Source of the DNA: an uncultured Acidimicrobiales bacterium
GTDB taxonomy: Bacteria > Actinomycetota > Acidimicrobiia > Acidimicrobiales > DATKAS01
Direction of reading: 5' to 3'
Assembly (NCBI GenBank): GCA_963726495.1
Contig: CAVSCP010000009.1
Coordinates: 157,112-221,111 of the forward strand
DNA length: 64,000 bases
The translations under genes and the position numbers were made by a program. Position 1 is the first letter of the stretch. Each line of letters begins with the position of its first letter. The notes under the pieces are model-generated. The model saw nothing but the letters and a program-made list of their open reading frames with translations, was not told where the DNA came from and made no database searches. Positions 1 to 60,056 of this stretch are shown one piece after another.

Positions 1-216
1 CGCGAGCGAGGGCTCGTCGACGGCGACGCGTTCTCCGAGAAAGGCGAGGAGCTGCGCGGCGAGATCGAGCTCTCCACCGACAGGCAGGAACGGTCGATCG
101 TCGAGGCGATCGGCGACGACTTCGAGGAGCTCTGCATGATCCTCTCGCCCATGAAGGACGCGATCGTCGCGGGCGGTGGCTACCCGCGCGACCCGGCAAC
201 GATGACCCGGCCATGA
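1..216 (+). CDS. 3' end of SCO6745-like family protein (partial; paralog of the next gene)
   Basis: Frame 1 reads RERGLVDGDAFSEKGEELRGEIELSTDRQERSIVEAIGDDFEEL...GGGYPRDPATMTRP*. This aligns with the C-terminus of the next ORF (GGRELRESIEISTD...IEAIGDDADEL...AGGY). ATGA overlap at 213-216. Confidence 0.75.
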   Translation, partial: RERGLVDGDAFSEKGEELRGEIELSTDRQERSIVEAIGDDFEELCMILSPMKDAIVAGGGYPRDPATMTRP

Positions 217-1265
217 GCGACCCGAGGCTGCACACCACTGCGCGCCAGCTCGCCGCCTACCTCGAGCCGGTCGTCGGCTCGGTCTACTTCGCGCCGGAGT
301 GCCACGAGCGATACGCCGCGCTCGGCTTCAACGCGAGCGCCGCCAAAGCGGGAGCGGTCGCGCTCCCCGATGGCCCCGCGTACTTCACGAGCCGTGGCTC
401 GTGCCTCGGTCAGGTGCCGGGCGAGCTCGTCGCGTCGGCGTTCGCGGTGTTCAACCCGAAGGCGGTCGTTCCGAGCGTCGCCTACGGCTGGACGCTCACC
501 GACGCGAAGACGATCGCGACGGCGCGCACCGAGGGCGCGGTCGCGCAGCTCGAGCGCATCCTCGGCCCCGAGCCCGAAGGCCTCGACCGCGCGACCGAGA
601 TCCTCCGCCGTGCCACCGACCCGCTGCGGCCCGAAGGGCGCCCGCTGTACTCGGGCCTGCTGAGCCTCGGGCTCCCGGGCACGCCGATGGGCGACTTCTG
701 GCGCCTCGGCGACTACCTGCGCGAGTTCCGCGGCGACTCGCACACCGCAGCGTGGGTCGCGCTCGGGCTCGACGCGACCGAGATCGGTCTGCTCACCGAG
801 CTGTTCATCGGCCTGCCGATGCGCACCTACATCCGCACGCGCGCATGGAGCGACGAGGATCTCGACGCGGCGGTCGAGCGACTGCAATCGCGCGACCTCA
901 TCGACACGGACGGCACCGGCTTCACCGACGGGGGACGCGAGCTGCGCGAGAGCATCGAGATCTCGACCGATCTCTCGATGGCGCCGACGATCGAAGCGAT
1001 CGGCGACGATGCCGACGAGCTCTTCGCGTTGCTCGGTCCGTGGGGGCAGAAGGTGCGCGAGGCGGGTGGCTACCTCGGCGGCGGCGCCTCCGACCTGGCT
1101 CCGCGAGCGAACGAGATCCCGGCGCCTAGCTCTTCACCTAGAGCTCGGGCGCGTTCACGTACTTCTCGCCGCCACCGAGCCGCACGACGTCCGCGTACCA
1201 GCTGCCCTCGTACACGTCGTTCGGCGGCTGCAGCAGGTCGGGCGGTTGGCCTTCGGGCGTGGTGA
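213..1265 (+). CDS. SCO6745-like actinobacterial conserved protein; true stop probably near 1110-1140 (ORF runs on through a probable indel)
   Basis: Motifs LEPV..SVYFAPE, YFTSRG..LG, GRPLYSGL, LREFRGDSH. The Arg-rich tail after about aa 300 overlaps the convergent gene. Confidence 0.7.
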   Translation: MSDPRLHTTARQLAAYLEPVVGSVYFAPECHERYAALGFNASAAKAGAVALPDGPAYFTSRGSCLGQVPGELVASAFAVFNPKAVVPSVAYGWTLTDAKTIATARTEGAVAQLERILGPEPEGLDRATEILRRATDPLRPEGRPLYSGLLSLGLPGTPMGDFWRLGDYLREFRGDSHTAAWVALGLDATEIGLLTELFIGLPMRTYIRTRAWSDEDLDAAVERLQSRDLIDTDGTGFTDGGRELRESIEISTDLSMAPTIEAIGDDADELFALLGPWGQKVREAGGYLGGGASDLAPRANEIPAPSSSPRARARSRTSRRHRAARRPRTSCPRTRRSAAAAGRAVGLRAW

Positions 1266-2209
1266 CGAACGTCCACGCCTGCCGCTTGTACGTCCAGTTC
1301 TCGGGGTTGAGACGATGCGCCTCGCGCCACCACGGCACCGCGGCGTCTCGCAGCCCGCGGTGCCACAGCTCCTGGCCGAGCTCGAAGCACGCTGTCGCGC
1401 GGGCGTGCTCGATCGGCCGTGGCTGTGACCGAGCGATCACCTCGTCGGGGCTCAGCGCGTAACGGCTCGCGCCGCCGTTGTTGGCCCAGTCGACGATCGC
1501 GGCGCGATAGGCAAGCGCGTCACCGGGGATCTTCTTCACTTCCTCCATGATCTCGCGGACCCCGTCAGGGAAGCCTGAGATGTCCATCGTGCGCAGCGGT
1601 GACTCTTCGACGGAGGCGCCTTCGGGCGGACGCACGAGCACACCGTCCTCGTCGATCCACACCGCCATCGGGACGTTCCAGAAGCCGAGCAGCTCGTCGA
1701 GCAGGTGGGCGGAGTCGATCAAGCGACGGATGCTCTGGTGCCGCGGCATCGATGAACGGATGAGCGAACGTCGGATCGACGTCGAGTGCGACCGTGACGA
1801 CTTCGAGCTTGGGGAAGAGCTCAGCGCGCAGTGCCTGCCACCCGGGCAGGCTCGTGCGGCATCCTCACCAGCTGGCCCACGCGACGAGCAGCACCTTCTG
1901 CCCACGGAGCGACGACAGTGAGAACGGGTTGCCGTTGCGATCGGGCAGCGTGATGTCGGGAACGACTGCCGTCGTCAGCGCGCGACCACCGCTCTCGGGA
2001 CCCAACGCCCAGAGACCGTGCGCCTCGTCGTGGACGAGCGGCATGCGCAGCCGTTCGGCCACCATTTCGACCGACAGCTGTCCGTCGGACGGCGTGCCAC
2101 CGGGGAGCGGAACGCAGACGTCACCCTTGCAAAGCCCCTGTGGCTTCGCCTCCCAACCGGTCCGCGTTGCGAAGTCGTCAGCGGCGATGGAGAGGGAATC
2201 AACGATCAT
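1138..2209 (-). CDS. ResA/TlpA-like redoxin selenoprotein (WASW-U-GC motif) with C-terminal TPR-like region; in-frame UGA at 1867-1865 and one probable indel near 1722
   Basis: ORF 1865..2209 ends ...PDITLPDRNGNPFSLSSLRGQKVLLVAWASW-TGA. The same frame continues GCRTSLPGWQALRAELFPKLEVVTVALDVDP...APEHPS, then joins ORF 1138..1905 (LIDSAHLLDELLGFWNVPMAVWIDEDG). Confidence 0.8.
1833..1851 (-). promoter_or_regulatory. Putative bacterial SECIS hairpin
   Basis: On the minus strand, 13 nt after the UGA: GCCUGCC-CGGGU-GGCAGGC, a 7-bp perfect stem with a G-containing loop. Confidence 0.65.
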
Positions 2210-2243
2210 GAGACGACGCTATCGGCCGGTAGGGTGATCAGCC

Positions 2244-3128
2244 ATGGAGCACGTGCGGTGGTCGTCGCGACCCCGCCTTCGCACGCCTGTCGTGATCGCC
2301 GCGTTCGCAGGATGGAACGACGCGGGCGAGGCGGCATCGAACGCCGGTCACCATCTCGCCGACGTGTGGGCGACACGGCCGTTCGCGACGATCGACGCGG
2401 AAGACTTCTACGACTTCAGCTCGACGCGACCGCACGTGCGGCTCGTCGACGGCGGACAACGCGAGATCGTGTGGCCGATCAACGAGCTCTCGGCGTCGTC
2501 GGTGCTCGGCGCCGACATGGACGTCGTGCTGCTGATCGGCACCGAGCCTCAGCTGAAGTGGCGCACGTTCTGCTCCGAGGTGCTCGAGGTCGTGACCGAG
2601 CTGAACGCTCGCATGCTCATCACGCTCGGCGCGCTGCTCGCCGAGGTCCCGCACTCACGGCCCGTCTCGGTGATCGGCACCGCCGCCGATCCCACGCTCA
2701 TCGAGCAACACGGCCTGCAGCGCTCCCGCTACGAAGGCCCGACCGGCATCGTCGGTGCGTTGCACGATGCGTGCAACACCGCCGGGCTGCCGTCGCTCTC
2801 GCTGTGGGCCGCGGTGCCCGCCTACGTGCAGGGAGCGCCCTCGCCGAAGGCGGCACTCGCCCTCGTCGAACGGGTTGGCGACGTGCTCGACCTCATGATC
2901 CCGACGACTGCACTCGAGATCGCCTCGGCCGCCTACGAGCGCGAGGTCGATGAGGTCGTCACGAACGACGACGAGCTGTCCGGCTACGTGCGCCGCTTGG
3001 AAGACATGGTCGACAGCGGCGAGCCCTTCGGCGACGACGACGAGGACGAAGCGATCAGCGCCGACGACACGGTCGACGAGCTCGTCGAGGAGCTCGAGCG
3101 GTTCCTGCGCGATCAGCAAGGCGACTGA
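2244..3128 (+). CDS. PAC2 family (proteasome assembly chaperone-like) protein
   Basis: AFAGWNDAGEAAS, DFYDF..RP, GTEPQLKW, LGALLAEVPHSRP, YEGPTGIVG, WAAVP.Y, ELVEELERFLR. Confidence 0.9.
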   Translation: MEHVRWSSRPRLRTPVVIAAFAGWNDAGEAASNAGHHLADVWATRPFATIDAEDFYDFSSTRPHVRLVDGGQREIVWPINELSASSVLGADMDVVLLIGTEPQLKWRTFCSEVLEVVTELNARMLITLGALLAEVPHSRPVSVIGTAADPTLIEQHGLQRSRYEGPTGIVGALHDACNTAGLPSLSLWAAVPAYVQGAPSPKAALALVERVGDVLDLMIPTTALEIASAAYEREVDEVVTNDDELSGYVRRLEDMVDSGEPFGDDDEDEAISADDTVDELVEELERFLRDQQGD

Positions 3129-4363: not shown

Positions 4364-5699
4364 TCACGTGCGACTCGCCACGCGGGCCGCGACCAGCACT
4401 GGGTCCCAGACGGGCGAGAACGGCGGCGCGTACCCGAGGTCGAGGTCGATCATCTCGGAGACGTTCATGCCCGCGGTGATGGCCGTCGCGAGCACGTCGA
4501 TGCGCTTCGCCGCGCCCTCCTCGCCGACGATCTGCCCGCCGAGGAGCCGACCGGTGCGCTCTTCGGTCACGAGCTTGACGGTGGTGCGCTTGCGGCCGGG
4601 CAGGTAGCGGGCGCGAGTGCTCCCCTCGATGACCGTGCTCCTGAACACGAACCCAGCGTCAGCCGCTTCCCGCTCGGAGAGCCCCGTGCGCGCGATCTCG
4701 GTGTGACAGATCCGCGTGATCGCGGTGCCGACGACGCCGCCGAACGTGGCGTACCCGCCTCCGATGTTGATGCCCGCAACTCGCGACTGCTTGTTCGCGA
4801 CTGTGCCGAGCGCGATGTGCACCGGCCGCCCACTGACGCGGTGGGTGCTCTCGCAACAGTCGCCCGCGGCCCACACTCCGTCGGCGGAGGTCTGCTGCCG
4901 CCGATCGACCCGCACCGCGTCGCGCACTCCAACGTCGAGCCCTGACTCCTTCGCCAGCGCGGAGTTGGGCGCGACGCCGATGCCCAGCACGACGAGATCG
5001 GCCTCGAGGTCTCCGGCATCAGTGAGGACGCGCCCGGGCTCGAAGCCGGTCGCCGCCCGCCCGAGGTGCACGTCGATGCCGAACTCACGCATCGCCGCGA
5101 CGACGAGCTCCGCCATGTCCGGGTCGAGCGAGCGCATCACCTGCTCGCCCGCCTCGATGAGGGTGACCGGCGTGCCGCGGTTGACGAACGCCTCGGCCAT
5201 CTCGAGCCCGATGTACCCACCCCCGACGACGACGACCTGGTCGCAGGTCTTCGCGCGTCGCATGGCCGAGCAGCTCTTGCGCGTCGTCGAGCGTCTGCAC
5301 GCCGAGGACGTGCTCGCTGTCGATGCCCGGAAGGTCGGGCCGTATCGGCATGCCGCCCGTCGCGACGAGCGCTTGGTCGAACCCGAGCCGCAGGGTGCGG
5401 TCTTGCTCGATGGCTCGCACCTCGACCTCACGGGCGTCGAGGTCGATCGCAGTGACCTCGTGGCGCATGCGGACGTCGACGCGGAAGCGATCACGGAATT
5501 CCTGCGGCCTGCGGGCCACCAGCTCGTCGAGGGTGCCCACTTCGCCACCGACGAGATAGGGGATGCCACACGCGGAGTAGGAGGTGTAGTTCCCGCGCTC
5601 GAAGGCGACGATCTCCATGTCGGGACGCGTCTTGCGCACCTGCGACACGGCGGCCATGCCGCCCGCGTCGCCCCCGATGATCACGAGCCGCTCGGCCAC
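4364..5699 (-). CDS. CoA-disulfide reductase/NADH oxidase family flavoprotein (indel near 5250)
   Basis: GGDAGG FAD motif, SYSACGIPY redox Cys, GGGYIGLEMAE, AAGDC, DLGYAPPFS, spread over two frames. Confidence 0.88.
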
Positions 5700-5732
5700 C
5701 GCGCGCGAGGATAGGGGTGCGAGCATGGAGGG

Positions 5733-5918
5733 ATGGCCGTGCGTGACGACTGCCGCCACTATTCGACTCGCTCGCTCGCCACCGGTGACCGAGTGGAGAA
5801 GTGCCGGCTGTCGGTCAACGACGACGCTCCGTTCGCCTGTCCGGAGGGTTGCCTCTTCTTCGAGCCGCGAGCAGGGATGTCGGTGGGCTGGACGGTCACC
5901 GATCCCGACGACGGCTGA
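5733..5918 (+). CDS. Small Cys-rich hypothetical protein (61 aa)
   Basis: GGAGG RBS upstream; CRH...C...CPEGC pattern. Confidence 0.7.
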   Translation: MAVRDDCRHYSTRSLATGDRVEKCRLSVNDDAPFACPEGCLFFEPRAGMSVGWTVTDPDDG

Positions 5919-6342
5919 GGTGGGTGTAGGCCTTCCACGCCCCCCAGGTGATGCCCGGATCTTGCAGCGCCGGATCGATGTCGGCCCAGGTCGCGGGCGC
6001 GAGGTCGTAGACGTCTTCGGGGAACGCGCGGACAGCGAAGTCGTCGCGGCGCGCGGCCTCGGGCACGCCTGCATCGCGGAGGACCTGCGTCGGGTACCGC
6101 ACCGCTCCCCGCAGGATCGAGAGAGGGTTCGTGCGCTGCTCGTCGATGTCGGTCTCGAGGAGCGCGCGCACCGCGGCCCCGACCTCGGCGCGGGCCCGTT
6201 GCCCCGCGTCTCGTGCGGCTTCGATCATCTCCGCGTCGGGCTCACGGCCCGCCCCGCTCGCCACACCCACCACCGCGCGCACCACCCAGCCCGGGATCGC
6301 GTCTTCGATCGCGACTGCCAGCGTCTCGGCCGGCGGCTCCAT
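5896..6342 (-). CDS. Hypothetical protein
   Basis: MEPPAETL...LLETDIDEQRTNPLSILR...RDDF...FPEDVYDLAPA...WGAWKA. Start abuts the larE stop. Confidence 0.7.
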   Translation of the reverse strand: MEPPAETLAVAIEDAIPGWVVRAVVGVASGAGREPDAEMIEAARDAGQRARAEVGAAVRALLETDIDEQRTNPLSILRGAVRYPTQVLRDAGVPEAARRDDFAVRAFPEDVYDLAPATWADIDPALQDPGITWGAWKAYTHLSRRRDR

Positions 6343-14204: not shown

Positions 14205-14888
14205 CTAGCCCAGGTTGAGGCGGGTGACCAGCTCGTCGATCGGACACACCATCCCGACGAAGAAGCGACCGAACTCCGCGTAGAGCGCCGATGCCTCGTC
14301 GAAGCGCATCGTGTACACCACGTCTTTGAGGTCGTCGGGGTGCACCGCGAACAGGGTGACCCCCCACTCGTAGTCGTCGAGGCCGGTCGAGCCGGTGATG
14401 AGCTGCAGCACGCGACCGGCGAACGTGCGGCCGGTCTTGCCGTGGCCGTGCATGAGCTCGAGACGCTCGTCATACGGCAGCGAGAACCAGTTCTGTCCCA
14501 CGTTGCGGCGCTTCGACATCGGATAGAAGCAGAACGCAGGCTTGCCCTCGGGCGGCAGCGTGGGGTGCAGCCGAGCCTCGAGCATCGCCTCGGGGAGGCC
14601 CTTCGCGTACTCGCTCACCTCGGTGAGCGACACGTACGAGTCGACGATCGAGACGCCCGCGGCCTGAAGGTCGGCCTGCAGCGTGTGGAGCCGCCACAGG
14701 TCGGGCCCGACGGCCATGACCGCGAAGTCGGCCTTGTGCCCCAGCAGCGCAGCGGTGACGACCTGGTGCTCGCCTTCGGACGCGCGCTTGATCGCAGACG
14801 TGAGCGCGCCGCTGTCGGCCGCGGGTGTGATCTTGCAGAAGAGGTGGAGGACCCCCCACCCTTGGGTGGGAGACAGCGGTTCGGTCAT
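14205..14888 (-). CDS. Coproheme decarboxylase/chlorite dismutase family protein (ChdC/HemQ-like)
   Basis: SYVSLTEVSEY, CFYPMSKRR, W..LP..ER..LM..HG, GSTGLDDYEWGVTL, MRFDE.SA.Y. Confidence 0.88.
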   Translation of the reverse strand: MTEPLSPTQGWGVLHLFCKITPAADSGALTSAIKRASEGEHQVVTAALLGHKADFAVMAVGPDLWRLHTLQADLQAAGVSIVDSYVSLTEVSEYAKGLPEAMLEARLHPTLPPEGKPAFCFYPMSKRRNVGQNWFSLPYDERLELMHGHGKTGRTFAGRVLQLITGSTGLDDYEWGVTLFAVHPDDLKDVVYTMRFDEASALYAEFGRFFVGMVCPIDELVTRLNLG

Positions 14889-17377
14889 CGCTCCTGCGGC
14901 GGAGGAAGCGGCTCGGTGCGACCGTTGTCGCTCTTGGCGCCGTTGCCGGTGTCGGTCTTGGCGCCGTTGCCGTTGCCGCTGCCGTTCGCCAGCGGCACGA
15001 GCGCGTGGTGCATGACCGGCTGGAACACGGGAAGCGTCTGGTCGACCGAGCCCTGGCTCTGATGCGCCGCGACGACGCTGAGGTGGTACGCCTCGTAGGA
15101 GATCATGAAGTCGTCGGTGTGGTACACGTCACCGTCGAGCGTCGGACCCTTGCCCCCTTCGAAGATCGCGACGATGTCTTCGCCCGTGATCGTCTTGTGG
15201 GTCTCGAGCGCATGCGCGATCGCCAGCACGTAGCGACGGTCCTCGACGAGCATCCCGTGCGCGCGCTCGCAACAGCTCTTGCAACCGCGTCTCGACCCGC
15301 CGGCCGAGCTCGGTCTCGAGGAAGTTGCGGTCCTCGCCGGTGATGACGCTGCCCGTCGCACCGGCCGCGCCCGGCATGTAGCCACGCGAGCCGACCGTCG
15401 CTCCCATGCCGGCGTACGCCTCCATGCCCGCGACGATCGTGGTCGCGTTCTGCAGGTCGCCGCCGACGCCCGCGGAGTTGTCTCCGTCGAAGAAGAGCCG
15501 CTCCCCGGCAAGCGACGCGACGAACGTGATGACGTCGCGCTCCTTGCCCGACTTCCAGTCGACGAACTGCTCCTCGAGCGGGACCGGAGCGACGAAGCCG
15601 CCGGTGCCACCGCGGCGCTCGATCGTCGCGACGTCGATCATCTCGCGCTTCTGCAAGCGGTACATCGCAACCGCGTGCGACGCCTCGTGGATCGCCACCG
15701 CGTGGCGCTCCCAGTCGGCGTACTTCCAGTCGTCGGCCGGGCCGTTGTTCTTCAGATGCTTCGCCTTCGAGCGCGTCGGCGTACTCCACCGTGTCGCGAC
15801 CCTCACGGATCGCGACGATGAGGGCCTCGTTCACGACGTCCTTGATGGTGGCGCCGGTCGCATAGGGCGACATCGAGCGCGAGCTTCTCGATCTCGTCGG
15901 GTGTGAGCGAGTGCTTCACCCTGTCGAAGTAGCCCTGGAAGGTGCGCGTGCGACCCTCGAGGTACGGGTAGCCGACCTTGTAGATGCGGTCGATGCGGCC
16001 CGGCCGGAGCAGCGCCTCGTCGAGCGCCTGAGGCATGTTCGTCGCCATCATCACGAGGATGCGGTACTTCGGCGGCGGCTTCGGCTTCATCGTCAGCACA
16101 CGGCGGACGGTGCGGTTGAAGAACCCGCGCGGCTTCTTCAGGCCCGAGAGCTCGGTCAGCAGGGCCTGCAGCGTGCCCATGCCGCCACCGCCACCGCCCA
16201 TCCCTGCGCCCATGATGAAGCCGCGCACACCGCCGGCCTTCGGCGCCTCGGGCTCCATCGGCCGGTTCGACCACCACAGCTCGTTGCGGGTCTGCTCGGA
16301 CACGTAGTCGAGCGAGTTGCAGCACATGTTGAACGGAAGCTTCGTTGCTTCGTCTGCCATCCGCCGCCTTGCGCGAGCTGACCGCGGTTGCCGAGCGTGT
16401 CGGCCTCGTCGAAGAACACGATCACGCCGCCGTAGCGCAACGCGAGCTTGCGCAGCTTGCGGAAGAGCGACTTCACCTTGAGGATGCCGACCCCGAAGAA
16501 CATGTTCGTGAACGCGCCCGGGTCGACGAAGACGAACGGCTTGCCGGTCTCACCCGCGACCGCCTCGGCCATGAGCGTCTTGCCGGTGCCGGGAGGACCC
16601 CACAGCAAGATGCCGGACGGCACGTGCCCGCCCTTGCTCTCGATCTTCTCCGGGATCCTCGAGGAACATCACGTTCTCTTTGACCCGCTCGAGCACCGGG
16701 TCCTGGCCCCAGACGTCAGAGAACCGCGTCTTGATGTCGTCGGGGTAGTAGGTGTCGACGCCGCCGCGCGAGAGGAACCAGAAGATCGCGACGAACTGGC
16801 CGACCGCGAGGCCGAGCAGCATGAAGACCTGGAAGATGAACGGCAGGCCCTGCGCGGTCGAGAACAGGATGTCGTAGATCCGCGACGGCGCCTGGAAGAA
16901 CGCCTCGATCGGCGTGACGTCCCACCGGCCGGCGAAGAACACGCAGAGCACGACGCTGACGAACACGAACTTGAGCGCCCGCGAGATGCGGAACCGCGTC
17001 CACGGGTTCATCCTCTCGGCGCGCTTGTTGAAGCGGCCGAACACCTGGTCTTCCCAGAACATGTTGTACCGGGTCGAGTGCTCGCAGACCACGTAGTGGA
17101 TCTGGCGCACGAGCTCGAGCAGGAACGCGAGGAAGAACCACCACTTCGCCCGGGCCGTCTCGCGCAGCGCGTCGCGGAACGGGATGATCGGGTTGTCCGC
17201 CATGTCGTTCCAGGTGAGGAACGCGAACAGCAGCGCGATGACGATCAGGATCTTCGTGCGATCCCACATCGCCATCTTCTTGCGGGTGCGCTTCACCTCG
17301 GCTTCGGGCACGGGGACGTGCACCGGCGGAGGAGGCGGAGGGGGCGCAGGCGACGGATCGGGCCAGGCGATGCTCAT
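14885..17377 (-). CDS. Divergent FtsH-like membrane AAA+ ATPase/M41 metalloprotease (several indels)
   Basis: N-terminal TM helices; RFSDVWGQD; Walker A GPPGTGKT; Walker B VFFDEAD; [12 protein letters not shown]; HEASH zinc motif; GVGGDL. Pieces lie in ORFs 16550, 16156, 15803, 15103, 15129 and 14885. Confidence 0.82.
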
Positions 17378-17378
17378 G

Positions 17379-18044
17379 TCAGCTCTTCTTCCTGATCTGC
17401 CACGAGTCGACGACAGCGTCGATCTCACTCCGATGCTGCAAGTAGCACTTCGATGAGCACTTCACGAGGAACCGGTACAGGGTAGTGGTGCCCGGATCGA
17501 CCAGGGCGATCTGATCGATGGTCACGTACGACCCGTTGATCAGCTTGTTGAGCACGATCCGGTTGCCTCGCAGGCCGTCGTGCGTCGTGAGTGCTTCGTA
17601 CTTCACGATCTCGATGTCGGTGCTGCCCTGCTGGTACATGGCGATCGGGTCACCGGTACCGTCGAGGGCGAGCGCGCGCAGGTCGACGTTCGACACCTGG
17701 TCGCGCACCGACTCTCCGATGGGGCTGATCTCGGCCTGGCCCACGATCGCCTGCGGGATGTCTTCCTCGAAGTGGGTGACGTCGGGCTTCTGGTCCGCGT
17801 CGAACACGATCCGCCACGGGCCCGTCGGCTGGTTCGCGGCGGTCGCGGCGTCAGGGAAGGGACGATCGTCGGGCAGGGCGTTCGGGTCGAGCTTGTAGAG
17901 CTTCCAGTCGTCCGGGACCTTGAAGTACGCGCCTTCGCCGGTGTTCTTGACGTAGGTGAACCCGGACGACGAGCAGGCGGCGGACGAGATCGCGATTGCG
18001 CCCACGACGCCCAGGAGCGCGAGCCGCTGGAGCCGAGGGGCCAT
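17379..18044 (-). CDS. Putative lipoprotein
   Basis: Signal peptide with SAAC lipobox; 221 aa; adjacent to the FtsH-like gene. Confidence 0.7.
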   Translation of the reverse strand: MAPRLQRLALLGVVGAIAISSAACSSSGFTYVKNTGEGAYFKVPDDWKLYKLDPNALPDDRPFPDAATAANQPTGPWRIVFDADQKPDVTHFEEDIPQAIVGQAEISPIGESVRDQVSNVDLRALALDGTGDPIAMYQQGSTDIEIVKYEALTTHDGLRGNRIVLNKLINGSYVTIDQIALVDPGTTTLYRFLVKCSSKCYLQHRSEIDAVVDSWQIRKKS

Positions 18045-31945: not shown

Positions 31946-34006
31946 GCGCTGTCCTTTCCGGCTGCGACTCTCTGCGCGCGACCTGCGCCACGCGGTCAGG
32001 GGTGAAGCCGAACTTCTCGAGGAGGTGCTTCAGCGGCGCTGACGCACCGAACGTGTTCATGCCGATGACTGCCCCACCGTCACCGACGTACCGGTCCCAC
32101 CCCAATGTGGATGCTTGCTCGATCGCGACCCGCGCCTTCACCGAGGGCGGCAGCACCTCGTCGCGGTACTCCTTCGGCTGGCGGTCGAAGAGCTCCCAGC
32201 ACGGCATGCTCACGACGCGTGCCTGCAGGCCGCCTGCCGCGAGCTCGTCGCGCGCCTCGAGCGCGAGACCCACCTCGGAGCCGGTCGCGAGGAGGATGAC
32301 GTCGGGGTTGCCGTCGGGCGGGTCGGCGAGCACGTAGGCGCCCTTCGCGACGCCCGACGCCGGCGCGTACACCGTGCGATCGACCGTACGGAGGTTCTGC
32401 CGCGACAGGATCGAGCACCGCGGCCTCGTCGTGCAGGCCCATGAGGATCCGCCAGGTCTCGACGACTTCGTTCGCGTCGGCAGGCCGGAAGACCAACAGG
32501 CCCGGCATCGCACGAAGCGAGGCGAGCTGCTCGACGGGCTGATGGGTCGGGCCGTCCTCGCCGACACCGATCGAGTCGTGCGTGAAGATGTGCACGACGG
32601 GGATCTCCATGAGCGCGGAGAGCCGGATCGCGCCACGCGCGTAGTCGGAGAAGATGAGGAAGCCCGACCAGTACGAGCGGAGCTTCGTCAGTGCCATGCC
32701 GTTCGCGACCGCAGCCGACGCGTGCTCACGGACGCCGAGGTGGAGGTTGCGTCCGCCCCGGCTGTCGGCTTGGAAGTCGCCGGCTCCGTCGAACGTGAGG
32801 TTCGTCTTCGTCGACGGTGACAGGTCGGCAGAGCCACCGACGACCCACGGCACCGCCTGCGCGACGGCGTTGAGCACTCGGCCCGACGAGTCACGGCTCG
32901 CGATGCCCTTCTCGTCCGCGGGGAAGGTCGGCAGCGCGCTCTCCCAGCCCGTCGGGGAGCTCTCGGCGCTGGATGCGCTCGAGCTCGTCGGCCAGATCGG
33001 GGTACTCCACGCGGTACTTCTCGAACATGGTGTGCCACGCGTCGCGCGCCTCGCGCCCGGTCGCGCCGATGCCGGCCGCGAAGTGGTCGTAGACACCGTC
33101 GGGGATGTAGAAGTCCTCGTCCTCGGGGAAGCCGAAGAAGCGCTTCGTGGCCTTGCAGCCTTCGACTCCGAAGGGCTCACCGTGTGCCTTGGGCGAGTCC
33201 TCCACCGGCGAGCCGTAGCCGATGTGGCTGTGCACCACGATCAGGGTCGGGCGGTCGCGCTCGGCCTTGAACGTGTGGAACGCGCGCTTGATCGCGTCGA
33301 GGTCGTTCGCGTCGGCGACCGTCGTGACGTTCCAGCCGTACGCCATGAACCGAGCGGCGACATCCTCGGTGAACGCGATGTTCGTGTGCCCTTCGATCGT
33401 GACCCGGTTGGAGTCGTAGATCCAGCACAGGTTCGAGAGGCGCTGATGCGCGGCAAGCGACGCCGCTTCTGACGAGACGCCTTCCATCATGCAGCCGTCG
33501 CCCGCGAGGGCGTACACGTCGAAGTCGAAGATCGGGAAGCCCTCGCGGTTGTAGCGAGCACCGAGCCACTGCCCGGCGATCGCCATGCCCACCGACGTCG
33601 CGACGCCCTGGCCGAGCGGGCCTGTCGTCGTCTCGACACCGCTCGTCCACCGGTACTCGGGATGGCCCGGGCACTTCGAGTCGAGCTGACGGAAGGTCTT
33701 GAGGTCGTCGAGCGACACGGCGGGCTGTCCGAGGATCTCGTAGTCGGGATCGACGGCGCGCACGCCGGTGAGGTGGAGCAGCGACCAGAGCAACGCCGAC
33801 GCGTGGCCTTCGGAGAGCACGAAGCGATCGCGGTTCGGCCAGATCGGGTCTTGTGGGTCGAACCGCATCACGCGCTGCCACAAGGAGTACGCGACTGGCG
33901 CGATGCCCATCGGCGTGCCCGGGTGGCCCGAGTTCGCCTTCTGGATCGCGTCCATGCAGAGCGTGCGGATCGTGTTGATGGACAGCGTGTCCAGGTCGGG
34001 GGTCAC
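31942..34006 (-). CDS. tkt: Transketolase (indels near 32950, 32410 and the 3' end)
   Basis: DAIQKANSGHPG, NRDRFVLS.GH, TTGPLGQG, GDGCMMEG, GVREH, THDSIGVGEDGPTHQPVE. Confidence 0.95.
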
Positions 34007-34164
34007 GGGCGCCTCCTGTCAACAGGGCGCCCGACAATGCCACACGAGTGGGGGGTCGGGCTCAGGGCAGGCACGGCCTGGACACGCATGCCTCGGACCG
34101 TAGAAGCGTGGGGCGCAGACGCCATCCGCCAATGGGGATGACGGCGCCTGATGCGCGAAGCGAG

Positions 34165-50850: not shown

Positions 50851-52543
50851 TCATCGGGTCGCGAGCCCCCCAGCTCGCGCGCCGTCGATGTAGCCCTCGG
50901 ATGCGCTCCACGTGACCTCGCCGTCCACCAGCACCGTGTCCATGCCCGACCGAGTGACGGATCCAGCGGATGCCCCCGCCTGGGAAGTCGTCGGACGACG
51001 ACCTCCGGCCCGCGGCCGAGGGTGTCGGCGTCGAACACCACGACGTCGGCGTGGTAGCCCTCGCGGAGCAGGCCGCGCTCGGGGAGCCCCCAGATCGTCG
51101 CGGGGTCGAGCGTGATCTTCTTCACCGCCTCTTCGAGCCGCAGGGCGCCGGTCTCGCGCACGTACCGCGAGCACGAGGAAGCCGGTGTCGCCGTAGGTCG
51201 CGAACGAGCCGACGTGCGCGCCGCCGTCGCTCGCGCCGACGTGCACGTACGGATGGGCGAGCAGACCACCGACCGCGTCGGCGTCGCTGTGGCCGATGTC
51301 GGCGCGGATGAACCACGTGCCGAGGTCTTCCTCGACGGAGAGGTCGATGAGGAGGTCGCCGGGCGTGACCCCGCGCTCCCCGGCGATCTCGCCGAGCGTG
51401 CGGCCGACGAGGTCGCGGTTGCTGTCGAGCGCGACCTCGCGGACGACGAAGCCGCTCGGGTCGAGGCCGGCGTTCGGCACGCTCGCGAGCATGTTGATCG
51501 TGCCGGCGAGCGCGGCGCGCTTGTCGGGGTCGGCGAACGCGGCGAGCTTCTCTTCCTTCGTGGGCAGCGAGAGCACCGGCCACCAGCCCGGCAGCGCGAG
51601 GAACATGATGCTGCGCTGGTCGAGCGTCCAGCTGATGTCGATCGGGCGGGTCTGCACCTGCGGCCACACCCGCGCGCCCGCGGCCCACTCGCGCTCGACG
51701 GCTGCCATCACCTTGTCGCACGCCTCGGGCACGGCCTTGCTGTGGAAGATCGGCGAGAGCGTCGTCGGGATGCCGTGCTCGCGCGACAGCTTGCCGAGCA
51801 TCTCGACCCGCGACACGGTGAGCCCGGCGTCGAAGAACTCGTGGACGATCTGGAGCATGCGGCCGCGCTCGCCGAGCACCGCGCACAGCGCCTCGAGCTC
51901 GGAGTGCTCGGCCCAGCGGCACGGCACCGGGTTGAAGTCCTCCTCGATGTCGACGTAGCTCGTCGACATGCCGACCGCGCCGGCGTCGAGGCACTCGCGC
52001 AGCAGGTCGCACATCGCCGCGACCTCTTCTGCGGTCGCCGGCCGGCGCACGTCCTGCCCGAGCACTGCAGGCGCAGCACCGAGTGGCCGACGAGCGGCGC
52101 GAAGTTGAGCGCGAGGTTGCCCTTGCAGCGCGTCGACCATCCCGCCGAACGACTCGCCCCAGCGCCAGTCGACGCCCTGCGCGAACGCGGCCTCGGGCAT
52201 CTCCTCGATCAGGCGGAACATCCGCGAGAAGCGATCGCGCAGCGGCGCGGGCACGGGAGCGAGGCTCAGCGAGCAGTTGCCGGTGACGACCGACGTGATG
52301 CCGTGCTCGATCGCCGGGATAGGCGTACGGGTCGAAGCAGAGCTGCGCGTCGTAGTGCGTGTGCGGATCGATGAAGCCCGGCGTCACGACCTTGCCGGTC
52401 GCGTCGATGACCCGCGCCGCGTCGGCGAGCGTGCGGCCGACCGACACGATGCGGCCGCCCTTGATGCCGACGTCGCCGAGGTAGGCCGGGCAAGCCCGGA
52501 GCCGTCGACGATCTTGCCGCCGCGGATGACTGACGTCGAGCAT
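50851..52543 (-). CDS. N-acyl-D-amino-acid deacylase family amidohydrolase (several indels)
   Basis: [37 protein letters not shown]...G...RG.L..GY.ADVVVFD. Confidence 0.85.
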
Positions 52544-52786
52544 CAGAGCTCTGCTCTCGATGCTGGTTCGGGACCGAACAGCACGGTCCACGGTTGGCCT
52601 TCGAGATCTTCGAGGCGGTCGAGCGCCGGCGGCGTCGAGCGCGCGGGCCATCGCCTCCTCGGTGACGCTGAGGTGCGTGCGGGCGCCGTTCGGGTACGCG
52701 AGCTCGACCACGAGCTCGGCCCGGCCGTCGTGGCCTGCGGCGACCGAGGTCGCGGCGATGACCGGCGCGTCGGCTCGAGTCGTCAC
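52544..52786 (-). CDS. Small hypothetical protein (about 80 aa; one indel)
   Basis: [35 protein letters not shown]...; translationally coupled to both neighbours. Confidence 0.6.
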
Positions 52787-54911: not shown

Positions 54912-56548
54912 GCGATCTCTTCGAGATCGTCGAGGAGGACGTGCGGGGCACGCCGACGCGTGTGTTCAAGGGCGCCCCTCCGTCGCTGCGTGCGGTCTGG
55001 CTCGCGAGCGCGGTGCACGGCGACAAGACCTTCCTCGTCTACAACGACGAGCGCTACTCGTTCGGCGAGTCGCACCGCATCGTCAACGCGCTCGCCCAGC
55101 GCCTCGGCACCTATGGCGTGCAGCCCGGCGATCGCGTCGCGATCGCGATGCGGAACTACCCCGAGTGGGCGTTCGCGTTCTGGGCCGCGATCGCGGTCGG
55201 CGCCGTCGTGGTCCCGCTCAACGCGTGGTGGACCGGTCCCGAGCTCGCCTACGGCCTGACCGACTCGGGCAGCGTCGTGCTCTTCGCCGACGAGGAGCGC
55301 GCCGAGCGGCTCGCACCGCTGCTCGGCCAGACGACCGTGCGCCAGGTCGTGCTCGCCCGCACCGAGCGCTACATGCCGAACGCCGAGACGTTCGCCGACG
55401 CCCTCGGAGAGCTCGACGTCGCGGCATTGCCTGACATCGCCGTCGAGCCCGACGACGACGCGACGATCATGTACACGTCGGGCACGACGGGGAAGCCGAA
55501 GGGCGCCGTCGCGACGCACCGCAACTTCATGGCGTTCCTCATGAACCTCATGTACCGGCAGACGATGGCGGCGATCGCGAACCCACCGAGCGCCGACGCG
55601 CCGCCTCCCCTGCCGCCCTCGACCCTCCTGACGTTCCCGTTGTTCCACGTCGGAGGGCTGCAGTCGGCGCTGATGGTCTACGCCGCGTTCGGCGGCAAGA
55701 TCGTGCTGATGTACAAGTGGGACGCGGTCGAGGCGGTCGACATCATCGAGCGGGAAGACGTGACGGCCGTGGCTGGCGTGCCGACGACGATGTTCCAGCT
55801 GCTCGAGGTCGCGCACGCACAAGGACGCGAGCTGCCGTCGCTCGCGAGCGTGTCGTCGGGCGCGACGTTGGTGCCGCCCGAGCTCGTGCGGCGCATCGAC
55901 AGCCAGCTCGCGTCGCGGGCCGCGCCGACGAACGGCTACGGGCTCACCGAGACCTCGGGCGCCGCCATCGCGAACGGGGGCAAGGCCTACATCGACCGGC
56001 CCGACAGCGTCGGCACCGTCATCTCTCCCGTCATCGAGGTGAAGATCGTCGGGGCCGACGGCACCGACCTCGCAACCGGAGAGGTCGGCGAGATCTGGCT
56101 GAAGGGGCCGACGGTCGTACGCGGCTACTTCAACAACCCCGAGGCGACGGCCGCGGCCTTCAAGGACGGATGGTTCGCGACCGGTGACCTCGGCCGGCTC
56201 GACGACGAGGGCTACCTGTATGTCGTCGATCGGTTGAAGGACGTCATCATCCGCGGCGGAGAGAACATCTACGCGGCCGAGGTCGAGGCCGCGCTGTACG
56301 AGCACCCCGACATCACCGAGGCCGCGATCATCGGCATCCCGGACGAGCGCCTCGGCGAGGAGGTCGGCGCAGTGGTGCGCGTGCGCGACGGCGCCGGCCT
56401 CACCGAAGACGACATCCGCACCCACGTGCGCGAGCGCCTCGCCTCGTTCAAGGTGCCGACACGGATCTGGATCACCAACGAAGAGCTGCCGCGCAACGCG
56501 GCGGGCAAGGTGCTGAAGCGCGAGCTCCGCGAGACGCTCGCCGTCTGA
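54908..56548 (+). CDS. Acyl-CoA synthetase (AMP-forming)
   Basis: YTSGTTGKPKG, GYGLTET, TGDLG, DRLKDVIIRGGEN, LPRNAAGK. Confidence 0.93.
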   Translation: MSDLFEIVEEDVRGTPTRVFKGAPPSLRAVWLASAVHGDKTFLVYNDERYSFGESHRIVNALAQRLGTYGVQPGDRVAIAMRNYPEWAFAFWAAIAVGAVVVPLNAWWTGPELAYGLTDSGSVVLFADEERAERLAPLLGQTTVRQVVLARTERYMPNAETFADALGELDVAALPDIAVEPDDDATIMYTSGTTGKPKGAVATHRNFMAFLMNLMYRQTMAAIANPPSADAPPPLPPSTLLTFPLFHVGGLQSALMVYAAFGGKIVLMYKWDAVEAVDIIEREDVTAVAGVPTTMFQLLEVAHAQGRELPSLASVSSGATLVPPELVRRIDSQLASRAAPTNGYGLTETSGAAIANGGKAYIDRPDSVGTVISPVIEVKIVGADGTDLATGEVGEIWLKGPTVVRGYFNNPEATAAAFKDGWFATGDLGRLDDEGYLYVVDRLKDVIIRGGENIYAAEVEAALYEHPDITEAAIIGIPDERLGEEVGAVVRVRDGAGLTEDDIRTHVRERLASFKVPTRIWITNEELPRNAAGKVLKRELRETLAV

Positions 56549-56563
56549 CTGAAAGGGCACACC

Positions 56564-57864
56564 GTGGACTTCGACATCCCGAAGGATCTGGCCGACTACC
56601 TCGACGAGCTCGACGAGTTCATCGAGCGCGAGATCAAGCCGCTCGAGCAGGAGAACGACAACATCCGGTTCTTCGACCATCGACGCGAGGACGCGCGCAC
56701 CGACTGGGAGCGAGGCGGCCTGCCGAACCACGAGTGGGAGCTGCTGCTGCGCGAGGCGAGGCGCCGAGCCGACGCCGCGGGCCACTACCGCTACCCGTTC
56801 CCGAAGGAGTACGGCGGCAAGGAGGGCACGAACCTCGGCATGGCCGTGATCCGCGAGCACCTCGCCCGCAAGGGCCTCGGCCTGCACTGCGACCTGCAGA
56901 ACGAGCACACGATCGTCGGCAACAACGTCGGCCTGCTCCTCATGATCAAGTACGGCACCGAGCGAGCAGAAGGCGGAGTGGATCGACGACCTCGCCGAAC
57001 GGTCGCGGCGGCTTCGCGTTCGGCATCACCGAGCCCGAGCACGGCTCCGACGCGACGTGGATGGACACGCACGCCGAGCGCGACGGCGACGAGTGGGTGA
57101 TCAACGGCGAGAAGACCTGGAACACCGGCATCCATGCCGCGCAGTACGACCTGATCTTCGCCCGCACGAGCGGCAAGGCGGGCGACGGCATGGGCATCAC
57201 CGCGTTCCTCGTGCCGACCGAACAGCCCGGGCTTCGAGGTGCTCGAGTTCCTCTGGACGTTCAACATGCCGACCGACCACGCGCACATCCGGCTGACCGA
57301 ACGTGCGCGTGCCCGACAGCTCCATCTTCGGCGGCGAGGGCCGCGGCCTGCAGGTCGTGCAGCACTTCTTCAACGAGAACCGCATCCGCCAAGCCGCTTC
57401 GAGCCTCGGTGCGGCTGAGTTCTGCATCGACGAGGCCGTGAAGTACGCGAACCAGCGGGCGCCGTTCGGCAAGAAGCTCTCGACCAACCAGGCGATCCAG
57501 TTCCCGCTCGTCGAGCTGTCACACGCAGTGCGAGATGCTGCGCGTGCTGATCCAGAAGACCGCGTGGTCGATGGACAAGTACGGCGCGTTCTCGCAGTCC
57601 GACAAGGTCTCGATGTGCAACTACTGGGCCAACCGGCTGTGCTGCGAGGCGGCTGATCGTGCGATGCAGGTGCACGGCGGCATGGGGTACTCGCGGCACA
57701 AGCCGTTCGAGCACATCTATCGCCACCATCGCCGCTACCGCATCACCGAAGGCAGCGAGGAGATCCAGATGCGCCGCGTCGCCGGCTACCTGTTCGGCTT
57801 CATGAGCCAGCAGGCGCCGAAGGGCGTGGACGAGAGCAGCGCGGCGGCCGCCGCAGCGCGATGA
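56564..57864 (+). CDS. Acyl-CoA dehydrogenase (several indels)
   Basis: FGITEPEHGSD, WVINGEKTW, R..FGK.L...QAIQF, AMQVHGG.GY, RITEGSEEIQ. Confidence 0.9.
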
Positions 57865-59826: not shown

Positions 59827-59868
59827 TACGGACTACGTCCTCAGCTGATACGACTACGTCCTCAGCTG
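59809..59868 (+). repeat. Tandem triplication of a 21-22 bp unit spanning the monooxygenase stop codon
   Basis: GACTACGTCCTCAGCTG starts at 59809, 59831 and 59852. Confidence 0.9.
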
Positions 59869-59893
59869 CGTCGCGTCTCCCGAACTCGCGCGG

Positions 59894-59919
59894 ATAACCC
59901 GCCACCGATGGCGGGTTAT
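59894..59919. terminator. Stem-loop after the catabolic operon (terminator or REP-like)
   Basis: ATAACCCGCCA-CCGA-TGGCGGGTTAT, with an imperfect outer extension to 59885-59927. Confidence 0.6.
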
Positions 59920-60056
59920 TCGAGCGAGAACCCCGGGGGATACTGATGGGCATCGACCGGAGTTGGGGTCGGCGATGGTCGAAGGGTCTGGAGACGTTCA
60001 GCGACGCGTCGGGTGAGGTGCCCGATCAGGCGTGGGCCGCGGGTTGGGATACCCCG

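What the first reader, a model, noticed from the sequence alone, without database searches (positions are those of the whole stretch)
1138..2209. Hidden selenoprotein: two split ORFs are one redoxin-TPR gene read through UGA
Seen: the 114-aa ORF stops at TGA exactly where a TlpA/ResA fold needs its first redox residue (WASW-TGA-GC). The frame continues with sensible thioredoxin-fold sequence, and a hairpin follows. The stitched protein (about 355 aa) has an N-terminal GLCKGDVC Cys pair, a U-G-C centre instead of CxxC, and a TPR-like tail. Known: bacterial Sec is encoded by UGA plus an adjacent SECIS; I recall a WAxxUGC ResA-like family being catalogued, but know of no characterised function. 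Inference: this actinobacterium uses Sec, and standard annotation would split the gene. No sel genes lie in this window.
Basis: partly seen in the sequence, partly recalled or inferred. Interest (0 to 1): 0.75.

Follow-up and report, generated by a model that had tools for sequence, protein, structure and literature searches.

The report
Known selenoprotein gene, broken by frameshift
This is one gene for an already catalogued selenocysteine-containing redox protein, and it looks split partly because gene callers stop at the selenocysteine codon and partly because the assembly carries one extra base, probably an error.

Summary
The TGA at 1867-1865 (minus strand) is real and sits at the first redox position of a ResA/TlpA-like fold (WASW-TGA-GC).

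**Family.** The gene belongs to NCBIfam NF041054, "ResA-like WAxxUGC motif-containing protein". Reviews list it as the "UGC-containing TlpA/Prx-like" selenoprotein.

**Evidence for selenocysteine**
- 77 of 80 orthologous loci have TGA at this column, and 3 have TGC.
- A 6-bp hairpin 14 nt downstream is paired in all 79 distinct sequences, with some compensatory changes.
- The genome holds selA, selB, selD and tRNA-Sec.

The 114-aa and 255-aa ORFs are in different frames. Reading through the TGA gives sensible protein for only 48 more codons. One extra base at about 1722-1723, absent from all five intact congeneric orthologs, shifts the frame.

**Why the extra base is probably an assembly error**
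- The window carries 86 such lineage-specific frameshifting indels. Seventy are +1 insertions.
- They break transketolase in this window and selB elsewhere in the genome.
- Codons after the break still show a mainly synonymous substitution pattern.
- The source reads were not found, so this is not proven.

**Function.** It is uncharacterised. The protein has an N-terminal Cys-hairpin domain without a recognised fold, a U-G-C redoxin core and a helical tail.

**Verdict.** Ordinary and already known.

The parts
2207..2209 (-). ATG start codon of the gene (model position 1 of NF041054)
   Evidence: Orthologs start with ATG or GTG at the same column.
1982..2209 (-). N-terminal domain, residues 1-76. 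It carries invariant C27 (2131-2129) and C32 (2116-2114), one on each of two short neighbouring strands in the model.
   Evidence: C27 and C32 are invariant in 12/12 and 45/45. AF2 gives pLDDT 89.6, with strands 25-28 and 31-33. The best PDB match is only Z 3.4.
1865..1867 (-). TGA = selenocysteine codon (residue 115) in W-A-S-W-U-G-C. C117 is at 1861-1859.
   Evidence: TGA at this column in 12/12 and 77/80 loci, TGC in 3/80. U aligns with the first Cys of CxxC, with one residue deleted.
1827..1858 (-). SECIS-like hairpin. The upper stem CCUGCC/GGCAGG is 1850-1845 / 1839-1834. The loop CGGGU is 1844-1840. The weak 3-bp lower stem is 1858-1856 / 1829-1827.
   Evidence: On 79 distinct sequences the upper helix is 100% paired. 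Pair 18-34 is CG71/UA4/UG3/GC1 and pair 19-33 is CG77/UA1/UG1. No shuffle of 500 reaches the covariation score. The Leu codon is CUG or UUG in all 80 Sec forms, but CUC in 2 of 3 Cys forms.
1594..1981 (-). ResA/TlpA-like thioredoxin-fold (redoxin) domain, residues about 77-205. The frame break lies inside it.
   Evidence: Pfam AhpC-TSA 34.6 bits and Redoxin 30.8 bits. In the congener's model, residues about 73-249 match DsbE, ResA and TlpA at Z 15.5-17.1 and Foldseek E about 5e-8.
1722..1723 (-). One extra base (T in CTTG on the coding strand, one A of AA on the + strand). It shifts the frame between ...EHPSL and IDSAHLL... and is probably an assembly insertion.
   Evidence: It is the only indel against 5 congeners. 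Contigs of relatives in runs X1 and X3 lack it. It is one of 86 window-specific non-3n indels. With it ignored, the only stops are TGA115 and TAG357.
1141..1593 (-). C-terminal helical extension, residues about 206-356. It holds one TPR-like unit at about 1297-1398.
   Evidence: NF041054 positions 153-351 are matched by this frame. TPR_2 scores 18.7 bits, below its cut-off of 27. Consensus-TPR chains match profile positions 271-305. Helices run from 215 to 344 in the model.
1138..1140 (-). TAG stop codon of the gene

Best explanation
Window 2209..1138 (-) is one gene of about 356 codons. It encodes a soluble, probably cytoplasmic selenoprotein of the catalogued family NF041054, "ResA-like WAxxUGC motif-containing protein, long form".

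**Shown**
- UGA at codon 115 lines up with the first Cys of the CxxC motif of ResA-type redoxins. The centre here is one residue shorter (U-G-C).
- A hairpin conserved across orthologs starts 14 nt after the UGA.
- The genome holds selA, selB, selD and tRNA-Sec.

**Inferred: decoding**
- SelB with Sec-tRNA binds the hairpin and inserts Sec at the UGA.

**Inferred: the frame break**
- The break at about 1722-1723 is a one-base insertion error of this indel-rich assembly. In the organism the gene is intact.

**Inferred: mechanism**
- Sec115, at the N-terminus of the first helix of the fold, attacks a disulfide or an oxidised substrate.
- It is then resolved by C117 as a selenylsulfide.
- The invariant C27/C32 pair of the N-terminal domain is a second redox or metal site.
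- The helical TPR-like tail holds a protein partner.

No substrate is known.
For: **Family**
- The two halves match NF041054 positions 1-166 (246.7 bits) and 153-351 (248.1 bits) of 354.
- Intact congeners score 488-499 bits.

**Selenocysteine**
- TGA sits at the same column, with conservation on both sides, in 12/12 fetched orthologs.
- It does so in 18/18 over-cut-off matches among 401 genomes of the phylum.
- It does so in 77/80 loci, with TGC in the other 3.
- selA scores 389 bits, selD 337 bits and tRNA-Sec 63 bits with anticodon TCA. selB lies next to selA.

**SECIS**
- The 6-bp helix is paired in 100% of 79 distinct sequences. Two of its six pairs show changes on both sides.
- Synonymous sites are frozen in Sec forms and relaxed in Cys forms.

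**Frameshift as artefact**
- It is the only indel against 5 congeners.
- The window has 86 lineage-specific non-3n indels, 70 of them +1 insertions and 10 of them 1-nt deletions. G008 has 16, G009 has 24 and G010 has 67. These counts rise as completeness falls: 65% for this genome, then 96, 84 and 77%.
- Transketolase lies in 3 frames and an FtsH-like gene in 6 alternating pieces.
- selB lies in 3 frames.
- Congeners with low completeness break this same gene at other positions.
- The synonymous to non-synonymous ratio is the same before the break (46:18) and after it (53:22).

**Fold**
-.
- No 19-residue hydrophobic segment was found. The maximum Kyte-Doolittle mean is 1.04.
Against: - The source reads were not found. 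No run holds more than 0.39 of the sampled words. The extra base could therefore be a real, very recent mutation.
- The two contigs that lack it come from relatives about 95% identical, not from this organism.
- The +1 insertions are not enriched in homopolymer runs: 27% against 37% of random positions. A simple homopolymer error model does not explain them.
- Indels are sparse near this gene. The first 4 kb of the window has only this one.
- selB is itself split in the assembly. If that were real, Sec could not be inserted.
- Sec insertion, selenium content and activity are untested here. The 'WAxxUGC' search found no paper, and the passages read list the family only in tables and in a sentence on habitats.
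- The redox mechanism is inference from the fold and invariant residues only.
- The full-length model is of a congener that is 89% identical, with Cys in place of Sec.
Confidence: 0.85

Rival explanations
1. The frameshift is real. In this strain the selenoprotein gene is a recent pseudogene. Its product would be residues 1-163 plus about 51 out-of-frame residues, ending at the next TGA.
For: - The base is in the assembly.
- No source reads were available to contradict it.
- It is the only lineage-specific indel in the first 4 kb of the window.
- The insertions are not of the homopolymer type.
Against: - There are 86 such indels in 64 kb, with a 70:10 bias of insertions over deletions. They hit transketolase, and selB is likewise in three frames.
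- Their number across four congeners rises as completeness falls.
- There is no second lesion, and the downstream synonymous to non-synonymous ratio is unchanged.
Confidence: 0.1
2. TGA is an ordinary stop. The locus holds separate small genes: a 114-aa N-terminal protein and an independent downstream redoxin or TPR protein.
For: - Public gene calls list the 114-aa product as a protein of its own.
- The 255-aa ORF has a GTG start.
Against: - Conservation runs straight through the TGA in the same frame in 12/12 and 77/80 orthologs. Three of 80 have Cys (TGC) there.
- The 255-aa ORF's first ~60 residues are out-of-frame nonsense over the redoxin core.
- A single profile of 354 positions covers both halves co-linearly.
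- The Sec machinery and a conserved hairpin are present.
Confidence: 0.03
3. The extra base is read by programmed +1 ribosomal frameshifting at CUU-G.
For: The site follows a CUU Leu codon, as in the prfB shift site. That parallel is recalled, not tested.
Against: - None of 5 congeners or 7 other genera has the extra base.
- No stop codon sits at the site.
- Dozens of similar insertions occur elsewhere in the window.
Confidence: 0.01

Closest known systems
NCBIfam NF041054 "ResA-like WAxxUGC motif-containing protein" (WAxxUGC_long). [quoted passage not shown]
   Same: - All 354 profile positions are covered co-linearly.
- The WAxxUGC motif has TGA at U.
- The length is about 356 aa.
- It is found in Sec-decoding soil Actinomycetota and Chloroflexota.
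- The 2026 review lists the UGC family in a table (PMC13188914, passages read). So does the 2008 ocean-sampling study (PMC2398784, passages read).
   Different: - In this assembly the gene is broken by one extra base, so each half scores under the 300-bit cut-off.
- The papers name only the redoxin core (cd02966 or pfam00578). Whether their entries are this long form was not checked.
ResA / TlpA / CcmG(DsbE) thiol-disulfide oxidoreductases
   Same: The central domain has the same fold. Against 3gl3, 2f9s and 1jfu it scores Z 15.5-17.1 with rmsd 2.3-2.8 over 136-139 residues. The conserved W before the active site and the cis-Pro region (VNVP) are also shared.
   Different: - The centre is U-G-C, one residue shorter than CxxC, with Sec in place of the first Cys.
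- There is no membrane anchor or signal-like hydrophobic segment.
- There is an extra 76-residue N-terminal domain and a tail of about 150 residues.
CnoX/YbbN-type thioredoxin-fold plus TPR "chaperedoxins" (recalled, not tested here)
   Same: The architecture is similar: a soluble thioredoxin-fold domain followed by a TPR-like helical domain.
   Different: No sequence or fold match to it was seen in any call. This protein has a Sec/Cys centre and an extra N-terminal domain. It is an analogy only.

Membership tests
NCBIfam NF041054 (WAxxUGC_long) | Whole-protein score at or above the curated cut-off of 300 bits | tested here: met
   It is met only by adding the two frames. The halves score 246.7 bits (positions 1-166) and 248.1 bits (153-351), and neither reaches 300 alone. 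The rough sum is about 495. Intact congeners score 488-499.
NCBIfam NF041054 (WAxxUGC_long) | The W-A-x-x-U-G-C motif with an in-frame TGA at U | tested here: met
   The motif reads WASW-TGA-GGA-TGC at 1879-1859. It sits at the same column in 12/12 orthologs.
NCBIfam NF041054 (WAxxUGC_long) | Long form: a C-terminal extension beyond the redoxin core (profile positions about 205-351) | tested here: met
   The frame of the 255-aa ORF matches positions 153-351.
Bacterial selenoprotein gene | Sec-decoding machinery in the genome (selA, selB, selD, tRNA-Sec) | tested here: met
   selA scores 389.2 bits, selD 336.9 bits and tRNA-Sec 63.3 bits, with anticodon TCA from ARAGORN. selB lies next to selA but in three frames in this assembly, and each piece is under its cut-off.
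Bacterial selenoprotein gene | A SECIS hairpin shortly downstream of the UGA, within the coding region | tested here: met
   The 6-bp helix lies at nt 18-34 counted from the U of UGA. It is 100% paired in 79 distinct sequences, with compensatory changes at 2 pairs. SelB binding was not tested. No Rfam family matches.
Bacterial selenoprotein gene | Orthologs with Cys at the Sec column | tested here: met
   Three of 80 loci have TGC: L089, L108 and L116.
ResA/TlpA/CcmG thiol-disulfide oxidoreductases | A C-x-x-C active site | tested here: not met
   The centre is U-G-C. The profile alignment to 3kcm shows WaswcG.c against WATWCPpC, so the centre is one residue shorter.
ResA/TlpA/CcmG thiol-disulfide oxidoreductases | An N-terminal membrane anchor or signal peptide (extracytoplasmic enzyme) | tested here: not met
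   The highest 19-residue Kyte-Doolittle mean is 1.04, and the N-terminus is acidic. This was a simple scan; no dedicated predictor was run.
ResA/TlpA/CcmG thiol-disulfide oxidoreductases | The thioredoxin fold of the TlpA/ResA type | tested here: met
   Z is 15.5-17.1 to DsbE, ResA and TlpA chains, measured on the model of the congener.
TPR repeat proteins | Pfam TPR match over the gathering score | tested here: inconclusive
   TPR_2 scores 18.7 bits against a cut-off of 27. A single 34-residue unit matches designed consensus TPR chains at about 10 bits per repeat.

The most novel reading that the evidence does not exclude
The long WAxxUGC proteins are an uncharacterised kind of cytoplasmic selenoenzyme with three modules:
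- a 76-residue N-terminal domain of no recognised fold, which presents an invariant Cys27/Cys32 pair;
- a redoxin core whose centre is a U-x-C selenylsulfide rather than CxxC;
- a TPR-like tail that holds a client.

Electrons or a bound metal or substrate would pass between the Cys pair and the U-G-C centre within one polypeptide. That mechanism is not described for ResA/TlpA enzymes.
Probability: 0.2. Interest if true: 0.5.

Novelty: already known. Interest (0 to 1): 0.22.

Why it matters
**For annotation.** This is a clear case where a gene looks broken for two unrelated reasons: a Sec codon that gene callers read as a stop, and an assembly indel. Indel-rich assemblies can pass for pseudogene-rich genomes.

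**For biology.** It adds nothing new in kind. The family is catalogued and widespread in soil Actinomycetota and Chloroflexota.

**What stays open.** The family's function is unknown. The invariant N-terminal Cys pair, in a domain without a recognisable fold, and the shortened U-G-C centre are concrete handles for a biochemical study.

Tried and rejected
- **Source reads.** The run search found no run holding more than 0.39 of the sampled words, so the extra base and the TGA could not be checked in this organism's own reads.
  - Contigs of four runs were laid. Only two contigs bridge 1723, in X1 and X3, both about 95% identical, and both lack the base.
  - X2's contigs stop at 1722 and resume at 1731.
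  - The RNA run X14 covers only 1857-1897 within a partly fitting contig. That shows nothing about expression.
  - No difference at 1865-1867 is among the 40 listed, but 49 more were not shown.
- **Rfam.** No SECIS family matched. The only hit was a chance 5.8S match at E 4.7.
- **Hairpin stability alone.** z = -1.27, which is not significant.
- **Gene neighbourhood.** Of 89 flanking ORFs from 20 of the 80 loci, none recurred as a partner. GatB appeared twice, and selB plus a selD-like AIRS gene once, in L085. Context gives no function.
- **ESM Atlas on residues 1-76.** It returned only unannotated clusters of 85-111 aa from Actinomycetota, at scores of 0.88-0.91. These are probably the truncated products themselves.
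- **Fold search of the N-terminal domain.** The best Z was 3.4 and no chain reached Z 5 among 48,161. A weak match does not prove a new fold.
- **CnoX/YbbN.** It did not appear among the listed fold matches. This does not exclude likeness of the tail, which was not searched alone.
- **Homopolymer test.** The +1 insertions are not homopolymer-enriched.
- **Literature.**
  - 'WAxxUGC' occurs in 0 papers.
  - Of PMC13188914, PMC2398784 and PMC5029168, only passages found by term were read.
  - No supplement was opened, although the supplementary tables of PMC5029168 may list this family by organism.
- **Unpublished genome.** G121, marked unpublished, appears only in the tally "26 of 401 at E <= 1e-40". 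No claim here rests on it.
Full report
**Observation**

On the minus strand, an ATG at 2209 opens a 114-codon ORF that ends W-A-S-W-TGA at 1867-1865. The next codons are GGA TGC (G-C).

Reading the TGA as a residue, the same frame continues with GCRTSLPGWQALRAELFPKLEVVTVALDVDPTFAHPFIDAAAPEHPSL. It then turns into Arg-rich nonsense with two further TGAs.

The 255-aa ORF listed at 1905..1138 is in another frame. Its first ~60 residues are nonsense. It makes sense only from ...LIDSAHLLDELLGFWNVPMAVWIDEDG onward.

The span 1138-2209 is 1072 nt, one more than a multiple of three. The two ORFs are not joined by read-through alone, because a frame shift lies between them.

**What the gene is**

Both halves match one NCBIfam equivalog model, NF041054 "ResA-like WAxxUGC motif-containing protein" (354 positions, cut-off 300 bits).
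- The first half covers positions 1-166 at 246.7 bits.
- The second half covers positions 153-351 at 248.1 bits.

Pfam sees AhpC-TSA and Redoxin in the first half. In the second it sees one sub-threshold TPR_2 unit. The genome holds no second copy.

**Orthologs**

Among 40 relatives plus this genome, 16 of 41 have a match over the cut-off.
- Five genomes of the same genus (G003, G006, G008, G009, G010) carry the gene as one uninterrupted frame. It scores 488-499 bits and contains exactly one TGA.
- All 12 orthologs that I fetched, from 5 congeners and 7 other genera, have the TGA at the same column. The motifs are WASW*GC, WSPY*GC and WAPY*GC. Conservation runs on both sides.
- In a sample of 401 genomes of the phylum, 18 have a match over the cut-off. 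All 18 contain one TGA.
- Among the best 80 loci from the species-representative genomes, 77 have TGA and 3 have TGC (Cys) at the column. Three loci carry a second tandem copy, also with TGA.
- Record titles of these loci name Acidimicrobiales or Acidimicrobiia, other Actinomycetota, Solirubrobacterales, Ktedonobacteria and other Chloroflexota, one Dormiibacterota, and a few Pseudomonadota MAGs.

This Sec/Cys pattern is the classical signature of a true Sec codon.

**Decoding machinery**

| Component | Place | Result |
|---|---|---|
| selA | C10:251198-252325 | 389 bits |
| selB | directly downstream of selA | present, but in three frames in this assembly |
| selD | C5:126886-127806 | 337 bits |
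| tRNA-Sec | C10:214898-214989 | 63 bits; ARAGORN gives SeC with anticodon TCA |

I did not test it.

**SECIS**

Counting the U of UGA as nt 1, nt 18-23 (CCUGCC) pair with nt 29-34 (GGCAGG) around a CGKGU loop.
- In the window alone the fold is not unusual for G+C-rich sequence (z = -1.27).
- On 81 Sec-form sequences (79 distinct), the six pairs are formed in 100% of cells.
- Pair 18-34 occurs as CG 71, UA 4, UG 3 and GC 1. Pair 19-33 occurs as CG 77, UA 1 and UG 1.
- No shuffle of 500 reaches the covariation score, and slid registers pair far worse.
- Synonymous sites are frozen in the 80 Sec-form copies. The Leu codon is CUG in 78 and UUG in 2, and never CUC. Pro is CCC in 78, and the next codon ends in G in 78.
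- Two of the three Cys forms use CUC, and all three differ in the loop.

Four of the six pairs never vary, so the covariation rests on two pairs. No Rfam family matches. As far as I recall, the position of the loop fits the range published for bacterial SECIS elements. I did not check this.

**The frame break**

Aligned with the five intact congeneric orthologs (83-84% identical), the gene has a single indel. It is one extra T in CTTG, at window 1722-1723, inside the Leu codon of ...HPSL|IDS.... With that base ignored, the only stops are TGA at codon 115 and TAG at codon 357.

Three lines of evidence point to an assembly error.

1. *The window is full of such lesions.* I compared it with the syntenic ~60 kb of G008, G009 and G010, and counted indels that all three comparisons share.

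| Genome | Completeness | Own indels | Not a multiple of 3 |
|---|---|---|---|
| This window (G000) | 65% | 91 | 86 |
| G010 | 77% | 67 | 67 |
| G009 | 84% | 26 | 24 |
| G008 | 96% | 19 | 16 |

Of the window's 86 frameshifting indels, 70 are +1 insertions and 10 are 1-nt deletions. The counts rise as marker-gene completeness falls.

2. *Housekeeping genes are hit.*
   - Transketolase (window 31971-34018) lies in three frames at 88-94% identity.
   - An FtsH-like gene (14888-17518) lies in six alternating pieces.
   - selB lies in three frames.
   - Congeners of low completeness (G001, G002, G004, G005) break this same gene at other positions.

3. *There is no decay after the break.* Against G008, synonymous to non-synonymous differences are 46:18 before the break and 53:22 after it. 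The other four congeners give similar ratios.

Points against this reading:
- The source reads were not found.
- The two contigs of relatives that bridge the site and lack the base are only about 95% identical.
- The insertions are not homopolymer-biased.
- This is the only lineage-specific indel in the first 4 kb of the window.

I put about 0.85 on an artefact and 0.1 on a real recent pseudogene.

**Protein anatomy and likely mechanism**

*Full-length model.* I modelled the G008 ortholog with Cys in place of Sec. It is 89% identical in protein, with 40 of 356 codons differing non-synonymously. The model has mean pLDDT 76.8 and pTM 0.75.

*Redoxin core.* Residues about 73-249 match DsbE, ResA and TlpA chains.
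- For 3gl3, 2f9s and 1jfu, Z is 15.5-17.1 with rmsd 2.3-2.8 over 136-139 residues.
- Foldseek gives E about 5e-8 and target-normalised TM 0.71-0.76.
- A profile alignment puts U115 on the first Cys and C117 on the second Cys of CxxC, with one residue missing. The centre is therefore U-x-C.

*N-terminal domain.* Modelled alone from the window's own sequence, residues 1-76 reach pLDDT 89.6. C27 and C32 lie on two short neighbouring strands. The two Cys are invariant in 45 of 45 sequences. No PDB representative reaches Z 5, and the best is 3.4.

*Tail.* It is helical, with one TPR-like unit.

*Location.* There is no hydrophobic segment. Unlike ResA and TlpA, the protein is probably cytoplasmic.

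*Inferred mechanism.*
- Sec115 is the attacking nucleophile.
- C117 resolves it as a selenylsulfide.
- The C27/C32 pair is a second redox or metal site.
- The tail binds a partner.

None of this was tested.

*Context.* Gene neighbourhoods are not conserved.

**Comparison with what is known**

- The 2008 ocean-sampling study lists "Prx-like (UGC-containing)". It says the family is more abundant in non-marine samples (PMC2398784, passages read).
- PMC5029168, which the review cites for this family, does not hold the term UGC in its main text. Its supplements were not opened.
- NCBI holds a dedicated model for the long form.
- The string 'WAxxUGC' occurs in no paper of the library.
- The passages I read list the family only in tables and in one sentence on habitats, with no function.
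- Public gene calls still list the 114-aa stump as a "hypothetical protein". In clusters of 73 and 11 members, most listed members are exactly 114 aa.

**Verdict**

This is a genuine Sec gene of an already catalogued family. It missed the frame difference between the two ORFs, which is most likely an assembly error. Interest is low. The residual interest lies in the unknown function, the U-x-C centre and the N-terminal domain without a recognised fold.

Noticed in passing
window 1-64000, densest at 52000-52650 and 56900-59700: The window has 91 window-specific indels against three congeners, and 70 are +1 insertions. Twenty-six of the frameshifting ones fall in the bin 56000-60000. The assembly looks indel-rich, which fits its 65% marker completeness at 3.85 Mb in 11 contigs.
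   Followed up: partly
window 31971-34018 and 14888-17518: Transketolase lies in three frames. An FtsH-like AAA protease gene lies in six alternating-frame pieces relative to the intact G008 orthologs.
   Followed up: partly
G000 C10:252334-254087 (L002:1474-3227): selB, directly downstream of selA, is split over three frames: GTP_EFTU, then EFTU_D2, then the SelB barrel and wing_3.
   Followed up: partly
window 4364-6074 (-): A pyridine nucleotide-disulfide oxidoreductase gene lies three genes from the selenoprotein gene (after the PAC2, unnamed and NUDIX genes). It is split over three frames here. It could be a redox partner, but this neighbourhood is not conserved in distant orthologs.
   Followed up: partly
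L062:4427, L064:4412 and L099:4423; also G015:C142:1485-2363: Some genomes carry a second, tandem copy of the family directly downstream, with the motif WAPY-TGA-GC. It is also a Sec form.
   Followed up: no
L085:162-2988: In one Actinomycetota MAG, selB and a selD-like AIRS gene sit immediately upstream of the WAxxUGC gene.
   Followed up: no
window 2210-2243: Only 34 nt separate the ATG of this gene from the divergent PAC2-family gene at 2244-3128 (+). No clear Shine-Dalgarno sequence is visible upstream of the ATG, so both mRNAs may be leaderless or short-leadered.
   Followed up: no
window 213-1265 (+): The convergent HTH_67-family ORF runs to 1265 and overlaps the 3' end of the selenoprotein gene by about 128 nt. 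Its G008 ortholog aligns only to about 1115, so its true end here may differ.
   Followed up: no
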